From NCBI GenBank assembly GCA_041664245.1, contig JBAYLC010000001.1, positions 190,585 to 254,584 on the forward strand: a DNA stretch of 64,000 nucleotides, in the 5' to 3' direction. Positions 3,976 through 21,469 of the stretch are shown here, one piece after another; position 1 is the stretch's first letter; every line of letters starts with the position of its first letter. The notes under the pieces were generated by a model that saw only the letters and a program-made list of their open reading frames with translations, made no database searches and was not told the DNA's origin. This DNA comes from Minisyncoccota bacterium. GTDB taxonomy: Bacteria > Patescibacteriota > Minisyncoccia > UBA6257 > 2-01-FULL-56-20. Both the position numbers and the translations under genes were made by a program.

Positions 3976-4105
3976 CGGTATCCTCCAAAGATTTAAAAAA
4001 TTCCTAGGCACATTATACTAAATACACCGAAAAAGTCAACCAGGTAGTGAAATTTCGACCTCACCGAGAAATTTCCAGTCGAAATTCTACTACCCGGTCA
4101 AGTTT

Positions 4106-17817: not shown

Positions 17818-18141
17818 ATGATTCCTTATGAAGATTTTTCAAAAATTGATTTAAGAGTAGTAAAAATATTAAATGCCGAAAGAATCTCTGGTTCGGATAA
17901 ACTTTTAAAACTTCAAGTTAACTTAGGTGAGGAAGGAAATCGCCAAATCATCGCCGGCATCGGAAAAGTCTACAATCCAGAAACTTTAGCCAATAAAGAG
18001 ATAATTATCGTTTCCAATTTAGAAACCCGAATTCTCTTAGGTGAAGAAAGCCAAGGAATGCTTCTTGCCGCCTCTGGTGAAAATGGCCCAGTTCTATTAG
18101 TTCCTGAAAAAGAGACTCCGCCTGGCGCCAAAATCAGTTAA
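17818..18141 (+). CDS. tRNA-binding domain protein (CsaA/Trbp111/MetRS C-terminal domain-like)
   Basis: KIDLRVVKILNAERISGSDKLLKLQVNLGEEGNRQIIAGI classic OB-fold tRNA-binding domain. Confidence 0.8.
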   Translation: MIPYEDFSKIDLRVVKILNAERISGSDKLLKLQVNLGEEGNRQIIAGIGKVYNPETLANKEIIIVSNLETRILLGEESQGMLLAASGENGPVLLVPEKETPPGAKIS

Positions 18142-18204
18142 TTTGACCGGTTAGTAGAGCTTCGAATAAACACACGCCGAAGAATTCGGAGTTTCACTAC
18201 TCGG

Positions 18205-18233
18205 TTGACAAAATTACTCAAACCGATTATAAC
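18205..18233 (+). promoter_or_regulatory. Consensus sigma70 promoter TTGACA-N17-TATAAC driving a non-coding transcript
   Basis: TTGACA 18205-18210, 17-nt spacer, TATAAC 18228-18233. Confidence 0.6.
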
Positions 18234-18239
18234 AAACGA

Positions 18240-18445
18240 AGATACTCCATTTAGTCAAGCCATTGCCTGGGTCCTATGACATCCAATCCCGGGCTCTGAT
18301 TCCTTCGGTTTCAACCAAGACCGGAGGGCTTAAGCGTTGACGTGCGTGAAAAAGCTTATCCTGCCTAACATCCCCCCATAGCTTTTTGCGTATGTCAACG
18401 CCCATTCCTACCGGGGCAGCCATCGACTGCCCCGTTTTTTATTTC
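18240..18445 (+). ncRNA. Candidate structured ncRNA or riboswitch-like leader (about 205 nt), class unassigned
   Basis: Own promoter, no ORF, several stable stems (CCUUCGGU/ACCGGAGG; GCGUUGAC...GUCAACGC), ends in GGGGCAG-loop-CUGCCCC + U6 terminator 49 nt before a micro-ORF. Confidence 0.45.
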
Positions 18446-18498
18446 TTGTGTGATATAATACCCAAGTCGGGTAAAATATTTTTTTTATCACCATCAAT

Positions 18499-18651
18499 AT
18501 GCTAAGGCACTATATCTGCCCTGGCGGCTGTGAGGGAGTTTCCGAAAAACAAGGAGTTTGTCAGGCCAAGGATTGTGAAAGAAATGGCGAGGCGCTCGAA
18601 GAGTGCGATTGTCAAAATGGCGCTCATCATCGATCGGAAAATAATCAATAA
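18499..18651 (+). CDS. Cys-rich micro-protein (50 aa, 6 Cys + HH)
   Basis: MLRHYICPGGCEGVSEKQGVCQAKDCERNGEALEECDCQNGAHHRSENNQ; unlisted (below 60 aa); extended -10 TGaTATAAT at 18451-18459; no SD. Confidence 0.4.
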   Translation: MLRHYICPGGCEGVSEKQGVCQAKDCERNGEALEECDCQNGAHHRSENNQ

Positions 18652-18659
18652 AAATAAAA

Positions 18660-18875
18660 ATGACTCAAAAAACTGATGTCCACGGGTTTGTTGTCGTTTA
18701 TGAAGAAAATAGTCGTGAGGGAGTTGCTTATCTTCGCGATGATCTCGATTTAAATGAGGCCCGGGTTTTCTTTGACCAAGCAAAAATAAAAGGTTCTGCC
18801 GAGTTTGAAGATGACGACGATCGGCCATTTACTTTGAGCTATCACGACGGCGAATATACTTTGATTCACCGTTAA
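18660..18875 (+). CDS. Hypothetical acidic small protein (71 aa)
   Basis: ORF directly after Cys-rich ORF; no recognisable domain. Confidence 0.4.
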   Translation: MTQKTDVHGFVVVYEENSREGVAYLRDDLDLNEARVFFDQAKIKGSAEFEDDDDRPFTLSYHDGEYTLIHR

Positions 18876-18912: not shown

Positions 18913-19761
18913 ATGCCAATAATCGGCGCTCATGTTTCCACCGCCGGCGGTCTTTCTATGGTGGCTCAAAACGCCAATCGAATTGGCGCTCAAGCCCTTC
19001 AGATTTTTGGCGCTTCGCCCCGGCAGTGGCAAGCTAAAATTCCGGAAAAAATTGAGGTTTCAAAATATCAGGCCGAACTAAAAAAATACAAACTCGGCCC
19101 AGTTTTTCTTCATGCCGCCTATCTAGTGAATCTCGCCAGCCCCGACGAAATGATCCGGGCAAAATCCATAATGTCTTTGACGGCCCATCTTAAAATATCC
19201 GAGGCGATCGGCGCCGAAGGATTAATTTTTCACGTCGGCTCTGGTAAGGAAGCGCCAAAAGAAGAAGCAATGAGTCATATTATTGAAGGCGTAAAAAAAG
19301 TGCTTAAAGAAGTCCCCGGTCAGGCTAAAATTATTCTGGAAAATTCTGCCGGCGGGGGACAGAAACTCGGTTCAAATGCTAAGGAAGTCGGCCAGCTTTT
19401 AGAAAAAATAAATTCTCCGCGCGCCAAAGTTTGTTTTGATACTGCCCACGCTTTCGAAGCGGGGATTATAGAATCTTATTCGCCGGAAAATATTAAAAAA
19501 CTTTTCGACGAATGGGATAGGGGAGTAGGTCTAGAAAATTTTGCCGCCCTTCACGTAAACGATTCCAAAACCGCTTTCAATTCCCATAATGATCGCCATG
19601 AAAATCTCGGCGAGGGTTTTATTGGCCTTAATGGTTTCAAGAATCTCGCAAAAGAAAAAAGAATTAATATTTTGCCGTGGCTTTTAGAAGTTCCCGGTTT
19701 TGATAATCTTGGACCAGACAAAGAAAATGTCGAAATTTTGAAGAAATGTTTTGTGGTATAA
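18913..19761 (+). CDS. nfo: Endonuclease IV (AP endonuclease, Nfo)
   Basis: TIM-barrel AP endonuclease 2 family, MPIIGAHVSTAGG start and metal-binding His/Asp/Glu pattern. Confidence 0.92.
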   Translation: MPIIGAHVSTAGGLSMVAQNANRIGAQALQIFGASPRQWQAKIPEKIEVSKYQAELKKYKLGPVFLHAAYLVNLASPDEMIRAKSIMSLTAHLKISEAIGAEGLIFHVGSGKEAPKEEAMSHIIEGVKKVLKEVPGQAKIILENSAGGGQKLGSNAKEVGQLLEKINSPRAKVCFDTAHAFEAGIIESYSPENIKKLFDEWDRGVGLENFAALHVNDSKTAFNSHNDRHENLGEGFIGLNGFKNLAKEKRINILPWLLEVPGFDNLGPDKENVEILKKCFVV

Positions 19762-19796: not shown

Positions 19797-20423
19797 ATGG
19801 CTAAACACGTTCTTCCCCAGCTTCCATACATCTACAACGCCCTTGAGCCGTACATCGACGCGCAAACGATGGAAATTCATTACTCCAAACACCATCAAGC
19901 ATATGTTAATAATTTGAACGCCGCGCTGGAAAAATATCCCGAGTTGTTTGAAAAACCGCTTGAAGAATTAATTAAAAACCCAGCTAGTATCCCGGAAGAT
20001 ATCCGAACGGCCGTTCAAAATAACGGCGGCGGCCATCTAAATCACAGCTTTTTCTGGCAAGTTATGGCGCCCGCCTCCGCTGAAGCTGTGGCGGGCAAGC
20101 CCAACGAGCCAACTGGCGAACTAGCCGAATTAATCAATAAAAATTTTCAAAACTTTACTAACTTTAAGGAACTTTTCACTAAAGCCGCCACCGGCCGTTT
20201 TGGCAGCGGTTGGGTTTGGTTAAGCCAAACTCCGGCAGGGGAATTAAAGATTCATTCCACCGCCAACCAAGACAGCCCATTGATCGAAGGACTTAAACCG
20301 CTTTTGACTTTGGACGTCTGGGAACACGCCTATTATCTAAAATACCAAAACCGCCGCGCTGATTATATTGCGGCTTGGTGGAATGTGGTCAATTGGGAAA
20401 AAGTATCAGAAAATTTAGAATAA
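19797..20423 (+). CDS. sodA: Superoxide dismutase, Fe/Mn family
   Basis: [28 protein letters not shown] signatures; extended -10 TGGTATAAT at 19754-19762. Confidence 0.95.
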
Positions 20424-21232: not shown

Positions 21233-21469
21233 ATGAATTTTAACTTTCTAAATTTACAGAATTATTTCGGCCCAGATTTCGTAACAAACTACGCTTGGCT
21301 AATTTCTCTTATTTTTATCTGGAGCATTATCTGGAAAGGTCTTGCGCTCTGGAAGGCCGCCGGTCGAAAAGAAAAATGGTGGTTTATCGTTCTTTTGATC
21401 GTCAATACCATCGGCATCTTAGAAATTCTCTATCTTTTCGTTTTTAGTAAAGACAAAAAACAAGTTTAA
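21233..21469 (+). CDS. Small membrane protein (78 aa, hypothetical)
   Basis: Two predicted TM helices; followed by terminator 21481-21516. Confidence 0.5.
   Translation: MNFNFLNLQNYFGPDFVTNYAWLISLIFIWSIIWKGLALWKAAGRKEKWWFIVLLIVNTIGILEILYLFVFSKDKKQV

What the first reader, a model, noticed from the sequence alone, without database searches (positions are those of the whole stretch)
18499..18875. Unlisted Cys-rich 50-aa ORF plus 71-aa acidic ORF immediately downstream of the candidate RNA element
MLRHYICPGGCEGVSEKQGVCQAKDCERNGEALEECDCQNGAHHRSENNQ has six Cys in three pairs (C-x3-C, C-x4-C, C-x-C) plus a HH pair. That is a metal-binding or redox mini-protein signature, or possibly a RiPP-like precursor. 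It is followed 9 nt later by a 71-aa acidic ORF. Neither has an SD. Both sit behind an extended -10 (TGaTATAAT, 18451-18459). A metal-sensing riboswitch controlling a metal-binding peptide would fit the geometry, but that is inference.
Basis: partly seen in the sequence, partly recalled or inferred. Interest (0 to 1): 0.5.

Follow-up and report, generated by a model that had tools for sequence, protein, structure and literature searches.

The report
Conserved eight-ligand metal-binding mini-protein gene
The 50-codon cysteine-rich reading frame is a real, conserved gene of an undescribed family of tiny, probably metal-binding proteins found widely in candidate-phyla-radiation bacteria; it is made from its own promoter together with a small acidic protein and is not controlled by the RNA upstream.

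Summary
Both ORFs exist as described: 18499-18651 and 18660-18875, both on the + strand. Both are under strong purifying selection.

**ORF50.** It belongs to a large family that has no name.
- A full HMMER scan found 393 cluster representatives, nearly all 46-80 aa.
- The signature is almost invariant: H-x2-C-x3-C-x9-C-x4-C-x9-C-x-C-x4-H, followed by an acidic tail.
- It matches no Pfam, NCBIfam, PHROG, PADLOC or PDB sequence.
[quoted passage not shown] All these matches are below significance.
- It fails the HMBD sequence tests, so it is HMBD-like in fold but not a member.

**ORF71.** It belongs to a separate, well-conserved Parcubacteria family. Its model is confident (pLDDT 94) but has no PDB fold match.

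**Linkage.** The two genes are linked only in this clade and in one distant lineage (L053). Both places also carry endonuclease IV, superoxide dismutase and DUF5652.

**Best reading.** ORF50 is a cytoplasmic, probably two-zinc mini-protein that handles or senses metal or redox state.

**Rejected.** Riboswitch control is not supported: a terminator and a promoter lie between the RNA and ORF50, and homologues have little or no leader. A RiPP precursor is not supported either. The lack of a Shine-Dalgarno site is normal for this genome.

The parts
18449..18459 (+). Extended -10 promoter-like box (TGTGATATAAT) for the ORF50-ORF71 transcript. It lies downstream of the terminator of the upstream RNA.
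   Evidence: Sequence. The matching box in L001 is TGTGCTACAAT. L002/L003 have TATAAT 7 nt before the ATG. Promoter function is inferred, not shown.
18499..18651 (+). ORF50, a 50-aa mini-protein with the signature H-x2-C-x3-C-x9-C-x4-C-x9-C-x-C-x4-H. It belongs to an unnamed family widespread in Patescibacteria.
   Evidence: purifying selection; 393 representatives; invariant ligands; AF2 pLDDT 78.7; nearest fold is the LpCopA HMBD, then zinc ribbons.
18660..18875 (+). ORF71, a 71-aa acidic alpha/beta protein (beta-beta-alpha-alpha-beta-beta-beta) of a conserved Parcubacteria family. It starts 8 nt after ORF50.
18412..18444 (+). Intrinsic terminator with an 8-bp stem (7 G-C pairs) and a T run. 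It ends the upstream structured RNA and separates that RNA from the ORF50 promoter.
   Evidence: It is conserved with compensatory changes in L001.
18240..18411 (+). Body of the upstream structured RNA. Its putative promoter is TTGACA-17-TATAAC at 18207-18235. It is context for ORF50, not a leader of it.
   Evidence: z -6.6. No Rfam hit. Found only in L001 by nhmmer and a covariance model.
18913..19761 (+). Endonuclease IV (AP_endonuc_2), the next gene downstream. It recurs near ORF50 homologues.
   Evidence: PF01261, 1.4e-38. Recurs in L001, L002, L046 and L053.
19797..20423 (+). Fe/Mn superoxide dismutase, part of the recurring neighbourhood.
   Evidence: Sod_Fe_N/Sod_Fe_C in the syntenic genes of L001 and L002. 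tblastn finds it in L046. The L053 copy was recognised from its translation.
21233..21469 (+). DUF5652 small membrane protein. It is part of the recurring neighbourhood and, in one other organism, is fused to the ORF50-type domain.
   Evidence: PF18893, 3e-24; fusion protein P0146 scores 9.4e-21. Present in L053.
17818..18141 (+). tRNA_bind-domain protein upstream. It recurs next to ORF50 homologues in L037 and L040 and next to ORF71 homologues in L007 and L017.

Best explanation
ORF50 and ORF71 are two real protein-coding genes. They are probably transcribed together from a sigma-70-type promoter at 18449-18459, after the terminator of an independent upstream small RNA. Read-through into nfo and sod is possible.

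ORF50 belongs to a large, undescribed, mostly Patescibacteria family of 46-80-aa proteins. These have a fixed His-Cys6-His signature and a disordered acidic tail. [quoted passage not shown] With eight conserved ligands it probably holds two metal ions. My inference is one Cys4 site from the C-x3-C and C-x4-C knuckles and one His2Cys2 site from His4, C-x-C and His43, with zinc the most likely metal.

The protein lacks a signal peptide. In membrane-fused relatives, positive charges flank the junction with the domain. So the domain is probably cytoplasmic and metal-loaded rather than disulfide-bonded.

Its likely role is a small metal- or redox-sensing, or metal-handling, module. It would act alongside small membrane proteins and oxidative-damage genes: SOD, endonuclease IV, redoxins and DJ-1. 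ORF71 is a separately evolving acidic alpha/beta protein of unknown activity that is co-expressed with it in this clade.

- Shown here: coding status, family size, ligand conservation, gene neighbourhoods and fusions.
- Inferred: metal identity and number, fold, promoter use and physiological role.
For: **Coding status.** Third-position bias and low dN/dS in both ORFs. Both are annotated by NCBI.

**Family.**
- 10 extra metagenome loci.
- 393 representatives with E <= 1e-3 and 39 with E <= 1e-10.
- Six Cys invariant, and His4, Gly9 and His43 at >= 90%, in 78 sequences.
- Of 151 sequences with the full motif, 146 have the 9/9 spacing, 150 have His at -3, and 140 have His at +5.

**Fold.**
- AF2 core pLDDT is 81-92.
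- The Foldseek top hit is the same entry, with TM 0.67 normalised to the target.
- The next hits are the zinc ribbons eL40, L33 and TFIIE.
- The LpCopA domain is a rubredoxin-knuckle copper sensor that shares its fold with zinc domains (PMC11970713).

**Fusions.**
- To DJ-1/PfpI and to DUF5652.
- To N- or C-terminal membrane segments.
- The membrane part of P0114 is 41% identical (E 5e-16) to the gene that follows the homologue in L053.

**Neighbourhoods of ORF50 homologues.**
- nfo and SOD in the window clade, L046 and L053.
- Glutaredoxin in L052, AhpC/TSA redoxin in L035, FMN reductase in L054, VIT1 in L030.
- DNA glycosylases in L040 and L038.
- Sources.
- An ORF71 homologue sits in the same gene string in distant L053.

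**Own promoter.**
Against: - No metal binding was measured, and the model coordinates could not be inspected for ligand geometry.
- Sequence tests against HMBD fail.
- Gene contexts vary. Several of the roughly 16 contexts carry only unrelated genes: methyltransferases, an esterase, EF-P. tRNA and translation genes recur about as often as redox genes.
- The nfo/SOD contexts may reflect shared ancestry rather than independent association. No background-corrected enrichment was computed.
- ORF50 and ORF71 homologues co-occur in only 2 lineages. None of the 23 other ORF71 genome loci has an ORF50-type gene within 3 kb.
- Promoter and operon structure rest on consensus matches only.
Confidence: 0.55

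Rival explanations
1. ORF50 is a structural zinc-ribbon protein with a housekeeping role in translation or tRNA metabolism, comparable to small zinc-ribbon ribosomal proteins. It would have no role in sensing metal or redox state.
For: tRNA and translation genes recur next to homologues:
- TruB directly upstream in L053 and L054, and 1.3 kb upstream in L046.
- tRNA_bind in the window, L037 and L040.
- MnmA and EF-P in L051.
- aminoacyl-tRNA synthetases in L047.

Against: - Translation genes make up a large share of these small genomes, so chance adjacency is high.
- Fusions are to membrane segments, DUF5652 and DJ-1/PfpI, not to RNA-binding domains.
- The protein is acidic with an acidic tail (E+D about 30% of tail residues), which is unusual for an RNA binder.
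- The structural matches are insignificant.
Confidence: 0.17
2. ORF50 is a redox-active iron protein, with a rubredoxin-like Fe(Cys)4 centre or a small Fe-S centre. It would pass electrons to oxidative-stress enzymes.
For: - It has paired-Cys knuckles with a rubredoxin-knuckle-like fold (PMC11970713).
- Its neighbours include SOD, glutaredoxin, AhpC/TSA redoxin, FMN reductase and a VIT1 iron transporter.
Against: - No rubredoxin or Fe-S family hit in Pfam or NCBIfam, even at E <= 10.
- The knuckles are C-x3-C and C-x4-C, not the C-x2-C-G and C-P-x-C-G of rubredoxins.
- The two invariant histidines and the C-x-C motif fit a second zinc-type site better.
Confidence: 0.13
3. The upstream structured RNA is a metal-sensing riboswitch, and its terminator controls transcription of ORF50 and ORF71.
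For: - A strongly structured RNA (z -6.6) ends in an intrinsic terminator 65 nt before ORF50.
- The RNA-ORF order is kept in L001.
- L003 also has a structured RNA upstream of its homologue.
Against: - The RNA has its own promoter-like TTGACA-17-TATAAC, and an extended -10 box follows the terminator.
- No Rfam match.
- nhmmer and a covariance model find the RNA only in L001.
- In L003 about 230 nt of unrelated sequence, and then a TATAAT 7 nt before the ATG, separate the RNA from the ORF.
- Other homologues have upstream spacers of 9-120 nt.
- The actual leader is unstructured.
Confidence: 0.04
4. ORF50 is a precursor of a ribosomally made, post-translationally modified peptide, or a secreted disulfide-rich peptide.
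For: It is short and Cys-rich with a variable C-terminal tail.
Against: - No maturation enzyme, protease or exporter lies in any of about 16 contexts.
- There is no signal peptide, and the invariant positions begin at residue 4.
- The domain occurs fused to a cytoplasmic enzyme and to membrane anchors with positive charges on the domain side.
- It is single-copy in the window.
Confidence: 0.02

Closest known systems
HMBD, the heavy-metal-binding domain (Pfam PF19335). Example: the N-terminal metal-binding core of Legionella pneumophila CopA (PDB 8OVL).
   Same: - Both are roughly 35-residue cores in which the first and last strands pair and two loops carry the ligands.
- Local motifs correspond: Y-x-C-P, (P/Q)-G-x-C and G-x-A-L-E.
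- Both are cytoplasmic domains that occur attached to membrane proteins.
- In LpCopA the domain acts as a metal sensor rather than a carrier (PMC11970713).
   Different: - No sequence-level relationship. There is no PF19335 hit at E <= 10, hhalign probability is 0.9%, and the family HMM scores the CopA fragment about 1 bit.
- The Met and His ligands of HMBD (C-P-M-H, C-G-M) are absent.
- The second knuckle is C-x4-C-x3-G, not C-x2-C-G.
- There is an extra invariant C-x-C-x4-H segment and an invariant His at position 4.
- It is usually a free-standing protein and was never seen on a P-type ATPase or a CusB/SilB adaptor.
Zinc-ribbon mini-proteins, such as ribosomal proteins eL40 and bL33 and the TFIIE-alpha zinc finger.
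   Same: - Two Cys-pair knuckles on a small beta scaffold.
- Size of 40-60 aa.
   Different: - Knuckle spacing is unusual.
- Eight conserved ligands rather than four.
- The protein is acidic rather than basic.
Zinc-thiolate redox switches and bacterial metallothioneins, such as the Hsp33 C-x-C...C-x2-C centre and SmtA. This comparison comes from my own knowledge and was not tested.
   Same: - A high density of conserved Cys, including a C-x-C motif, with His.
- Genomic association with oxidative-stress genes.
   Different: - No sequence or profile match to any such family.
- No chaperone or regulator domain is attached.
- Only eight ligands, which is too few for a metallothionein-type cluster.

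Membership tests
HMBD (Pfam PF19335) | Scores at or above the Pfam gathering threshold of 23.6 bits against the PF19335 model. | tested here: not met
   ORF50 and 9 homologues give no hit even at E <= 10. The LpCopA fragment used as a positive control scores 58.8 bits.
HMBD (Pfam PF19335) | The motif Y-x-C-P-M-H-P ... P-G-x-C-P-x-C-G-M-x-L, with Met, His and Cys ligands. | tested here: not met
   Y-x-C-P, G-x-C and G-x-x-L-E are present. The Met and His ligands are absent and the second knuckle is C-x4-C. hhalign probability is 0.9% and the family HMM scores the CopA fragment about 1 bit.
HMBD (Pfam PF19335) | A rubredoxin-knuckle two-loop beta fold. | tested here: inconclusive
   [not shown]
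HMBD (Pfam PF19335) | Found as a terminal domain of P1B-type ATPases or CusB/SilB-type adaptors. | tested here: not met
   Among the 150 best hits nearly all are free-standing proteins of 46-80 aa. Fusions are to small membrane proteins, DUF5652 or DJ-1/PfpI.
Unnamed His-Cys6-His mini-protein family (defined here) | The signature H-x2-C-x3-C-x9-C-x4-C-x9-C-x-C-x4-H in a protein of about 50-80 aa with an acidic tail. | tested here: met
   ORF50 has every element. The family HMM scores it 74.8 bits.
Zinc ribbon (structural class) | Two Cys-pair knuckles that bind one zinc ion on a three-stranded beta scaffold. | tested here: inconclusive
   [not shown]
Riboswitch-controlled gene | A conserved aptamer within the gene's own 5' leader, with the arrangement conserved across homologues. 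| tested here: not met
   - A terminator and then a promoter lie between the RNA and the ORF.
- The leader is unstructured.
- No Rfam hit in the window or in 18 loci.
- The RNA is found only in L001.
RiPP precursor | A leader-core peptide encoded beside its maturation enzymes or transporter. | tested here: not met
   No such genes occur in about 16 independent contexts. Conservation spans the whole core.
Rubredoxin / bacterial metallothionein | A match to the curated family models. | tested here: not met
   No Pfam or NCBIfam hit of any kind. No PDB sequence hit with the 78-sequence profile.

The most novel reading that the evidence does not exclude
The His-Cys6-His mini-protein would be the soluble sensor or metal-handling part of an unrecognised stress system specific to Patescibacteria. 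It would work with small membrane proteins (DUF5652 and the 86-aa membrane protein fused to it in P0114) and with an oxidative-damage gene set (SOD, endonuclease IV, redoxins, DJ-1). ORF71 would be a partner protein with a new fold. This would be a new metal-binding domain family, convergent with or very distantly related to HMBD. It would also give a first handle on how these reduced, largely anaerobic bacteria sense oxidants or metals.
Probability: 0.2. Interest if true: 0.6.

Novelty: new variant of a known kind. Interest (0 to 1): 0.42.

Why it matters
Candidate-phyla-radiation bacteria carry many small conserved genes of unknown function, and gene callers often skip proteins of about 50 aa.

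This analysis turns an unannotated-looking ORF into a defined family. The family has hundreds of cluster representatives, a fixed eight-ligand signature and a structural lead pointing to a copper-sensor domain and zinc ribbons. Its gene fusions and neighbours give testable partners: DUF5652, a small membrane protein, DJ-1, SOD and endonuclease IV.

If metal binding is confirmed, the family would merit its own Pfam entry. It may also show how organisms with minimal regulatory equipment deal with metal or oxidative stress.

ORF71 adds a second, highly conserved small protein with a confident model and no known structural relative.

For annotation practice, two further points follow. The adjacent structured RNA should not be read as a riboswitch for these genes. 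The absence of a Shine-Dalgarno site says nothing in this genome.

Tried and rejected
**Searches that found nothing**
- Pfam, NCBIfam, PHROGs and PADLOC scans of both proteins.
- PDB sequence searches with single sequences and profiles: nothing, or chance hits to RelB and GLI zinc fingers.
- The word-indexed protein search, which found only 2-3 ORF50 relatives. The family appeared only with the DNA-pattern metagenome scan and the full HMMER scan.
- A viral-contig scan.

**Structure**

**HMBD membership**
- hhalign and HMM tests of a sequence relationship to HMBD were negative.

**Upstream RNA**
- Rfam at permissive thresholds found only chance matches to microRNA and snoRNA families.
- nhmmer and a covariance model (R1) did not link the window RNA to the L003 RNA or to any other locus.

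**Literature**
- Searches found no description of this family.
- A paper that mentions PF19335 (PMC13254101) proved irrelevant.

**Considered and rejected**
- The minus-strand 108-aa ORF at 18502-18828 as the real gene. The codon-position pattern fits the plus-strand frames.
- A toxin-antitoxin or defence role. There are no hits and no paired architecture.

Full report
**1. The observation**

The window is low-GC (41%) DNA from a Candidatus Paceibacterota (candidate phyla radiation) metagenome-assembled genome.

Its Cys residues are at 7, 11, 21, 26, 36 and 38, and His residues at 43 and 44.
- ORF71 (18660-18875, +) starts 8 nt after ORF50's stop codon. It is strongly acidic.
- TGaTATAAT lies at 18451-18459.
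- GenBank already lists both ORFs as hypothetical proteins WCX12_01195 and WCX12_01200.
- Neither ORF has a Shine-Dalgarno site, but only 3 of 48 large ORFs in the window do. Many genes carry a -10-like box 6-10 nt before the ATG, so this feature says nothing here.

**2. Both ORFs are genes**

Three related contigs keep both ORFs in the same order: L001 (80% and 94% protein identity for ORF50 and ORF71) and L002/L003 (58% and 83%). All are followed by endonuclease IV, superoxide dismutase and a DUF5652 protein.

Substitutions concentrate at third codon positions:
- ORF50 against L001: 6/6/23 changes at codon positions 1/2/3, with dN 0.115 and saturated dS. ORF50 against L002 gives dN/dS 0.11.
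- ORF71 against L001: 3/1/25 changes, with dN/dS 0.02.

This pattern also excludes the overlapping minus-strand 108-aa ORF as the real gene.

**3. The ORF50 family**

The word-indexed protein search found only two relatives. Two other searches showed the family is much larger.
- A DNA-pattern scan of metagenomes found ten more loci, with GC content of 32-55%.
- A full HMMER scan of 1.84 billion cluster representatives found 393 proteins at E <= 1e-3 and 39 at E <= 1e-10. Nearly all are 46-80 aa.

Conservation is strict.
- In a 78-sequence alignment the six cysteines are invariant, and His4, Gly9 and His43 are at least 90% conserved.
- Of 162 retrieved sequences, 151 carry the full Cys pattern. 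The other 11 are truncated, lack a ligand or have altered spacing, or are DJ-1-only cluster members.
- Of those 151, 146 have spacers of exactly 9 and 9 residues, 150 have His three residues before the first Cys, and 140 have His five residues after the C-x-C motif.
- The tail after the core is about 30% Glu plus Asp.

The signature is therefore H-x2-C-x3-C-x9-C-x4-C-x9-C-x-C-x4-H. Every source name attached to these proteins is 'hypothetical' or 'uncharacterized', for example OGD32615.1 of Candidatus Azambacteria. No Pfam, NCBIfam, PHROG, PADLOC or PDB sequence match exists. The family is absent from the viral contig collection.

**4. Fold of ORF50**

The AlphaFold2 model built on the 78-sequence alignment has mean pLDDT 78.7. 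The first 40 residues score 81-92 and the tail is disordered. Residues 4-6 and 34-36 form paired strands.

- The zinc ribbons eL40, L33 and TFIIE-alpha follow.
- Foldseek independently ranks the same entry first, with E 3.5 and TM 0.67 normalised to the target.
- For domains this small, none of these scores is significant.

I confirmed that LpCopA residues 35-70 are the deposited sequence and that they match Pfam HMBD (PF19335) at 5e-16. In contrast, the ORF50 family gives no PF19335 hit. hhalign gives 0.9% probability, and the family HMM scores the CopA fragment about 1 bit.

The paper describing 8OVL reports a rubredoxin-knuckle core that binds Ag(I)/Cu(I) through three sulfurs. The core acts as a copper sensor that releases an autoinhibitory tail, and it shares its fold with zinc-binding domains (PMC11970713).

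I conclude that ORF50 probably works like a small zinc-ribbon or HMBD-type metal-binding module. It is not a demonstrable member of HMBD. It lacks the Met and His ligands, has a C-x4-C second knuckle, and carries an extra invariant C-x-C-x4-H segment plus His4. Eight conserved ligands suggest two tetrahedral sites. This is an inference, because the model coordinates could not be inspected.

**5. ORF71**

This family is separate and well conserved. The word-indexed search returned 21 proteins, and 20 of them align with 19 invariant columns. Twenty-four genome loci were found across Parcubacteria-type assemblies.

Apart from L006, which is the same contig as L002, none of the 24 genome loci has an ORF50-type gene within 3 kb. 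So ORF71 is usually not paired with ORF50.

**6. Linkage and neighbourhoods**

The two genes lie 8 nt apart in the window and in L001, and they overlap by ATGA in L002.

In the distant contig L053 the gene order is: TruB, ORF50 homologue (75 aa), 86-aa membrane protein, DUF5654, ORF71 homologue, PCC, endonuclease IV, SOD, DUF5652. The same gene set therefore recurs in a second lineage, with insertions.

| Locus | Genes around the ORF50 homologue |
|---|---|
| L046 | SOD, Pterin_4a, homologue, 122-aa ORF, endonuclease IV |
| L040 | HD, homologue, HhH-GPD glycosylase, tRNA_bind |
| L038 | methylpurine-DNA glycosylase (MPG) adjacent |
| L052 | glutaredoxin directly upstream |
| L035 | AhpC/TSA redoxin downstream |
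| L054 | TruB upstream, FMN reductase downstream |
| L030 | VIT1 iron transporter upstream |
| L047 | homologue fused in frame to DJ-1/PfpI |
| L032, L033, L049, L050, L051 | unrelated genes |

Further fusions join the domain to DUF5652 (P0146), to N-terminal membrane helices (P0044, P0050) and to C-terminal membrane segments (P0114, P0125, P0139). The membrane part of P0114 is 41% identical (E 5e-16) to the gene that directly follows the homologue in L053.

Roughly nine of about sixteen contexts include a redox, oxidative-stress or base-excision-repair gene. However:
- several of these contexts share ancestry;
- tRNA and translation genes recur about as often (TruB three times, tRNA_bind three times, MnmA and EF-P once);
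- no background-corrected statistic was possible.

The functional theme is therefore suggestive, not established.

**7. The upstream RNA and the riboswitch idea**

The region 18240-18445 folds far better than shuffled controls, with z -6.6. It is preceded by TTGACA-17-TATAAC at 18207-18235. It ends in an 8-bp, 7-GC terminator with a T run at 18412-18444.

- The extended -10 box for ORF50 comes after that terminator.
- The remaining leader of about 33 nt is not unusually structured, with z -1.2.
- Rfam gives no match in the window at gathering or permissive thresholds, nor in 18 related loci.
- nhmmer and a covariance model find the RNA only in L001.
- L003 has a promoter-to-terminator RNA of similar layout, with a C-rich loop. 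Its homology is unproven. About 230 nt of other sequence follow it, and then a TATAAT only 7 nt before the ATG.
- Other homologues have upstream spacers of 9-120 nt.

The RNA is best read as an independent small-RNA gene that happens to lie next to ORF50 in one narrow clade.

**8. Verdict**

The 'metal-binding or redox mini-protein' reading is supported by conservation and by the nearest structural neighbours, though not by any measurement. The riboswitch and RiPP readings are not supported.

ORF50 represents an undescribed family that resembles, but fails the membership tests for, the HMBD copper-sensor domain. I rate it a new variant of a known kind, small zinc-ribbon-type metal-binding modules. 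Interest is moderate and rests on three things: the family's breadth in candidate-phyla-radiation bacteria, its fusion and neighbourhood links, and the accompanying ORF71 family with a confident model and no structural relative.

Noticed in passing
window 18207-18445 (+): A unit that runs from a promoter-like site to a terminator and encodes a roughly 200-nt structured RNA (MFE z -6.6). It has a long hairpin whose 23-nt loop is C-rich (UUAUCCUGCCUAACAUCCCCCCAUA). There is no Rfam match. It is conserved in L001 with compensatory changes. L003 340-562 has an RNA of similar layout, also with a C-rich loop, but homology could not be shown.
   Followed up: partly
window 18140-18210 (+) and 4025-4105 (-); L001 1-61: A repeated hairpin element, TTGACCGGnTAGTAGA...TTTCACTACnnGGTTGAC. 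Its flanks are conserved and the stem shows compensatory changes between copies. The 3' flank of the 18140 copy supplies the TTGACA -35 box of the small-RNA promoter.
   Followed up: partly
whole window: Only 3 of 48 large ORFs have a Shine-Dalgarno-like motif. Many have a TATAAT-like box 6-10 nt before the ATG, which suggests widespread leaderless or short-leader mRNAs in this organism.
   Followed up: partly
L040 4204-5028: The HhH-GPD (MutY/Nth-like) glycosylase encoded right after the ORF50 homologue contains a single cysteine. It therefore lacks the four-Cys iron-sulfur loop typical of such enzymes.
   Followed up: no
L046 2707-2850: A 47-aa protein made of two SEC-C-type Cys/His motifs lies just upstream of SOD, in the same neighbourhood as the ORF50 homologue. 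It is a second putative metal-binding mini-protein.
   Followed up: no
L053 2463-2723; protein P0114: An 86-aa two-helix membrane protein directly follows the ORF50 homologue, overlapping it by 11 nt. It is 41% identical to the C-terminal part of P0114, where it is fused to the Cys-rich domain. It has no Pfam family.
   Followed up: partly
L007 3238-3495; L053 2723-2998: A DUF5654 small membrane protein lies directly next to the ORF71 homologue in two distant genomes. A DUF5652 gene lies about 1 kb from the ORF71 homologue in L012.
   Followed up: no
[not shown]
   Followed up: partly
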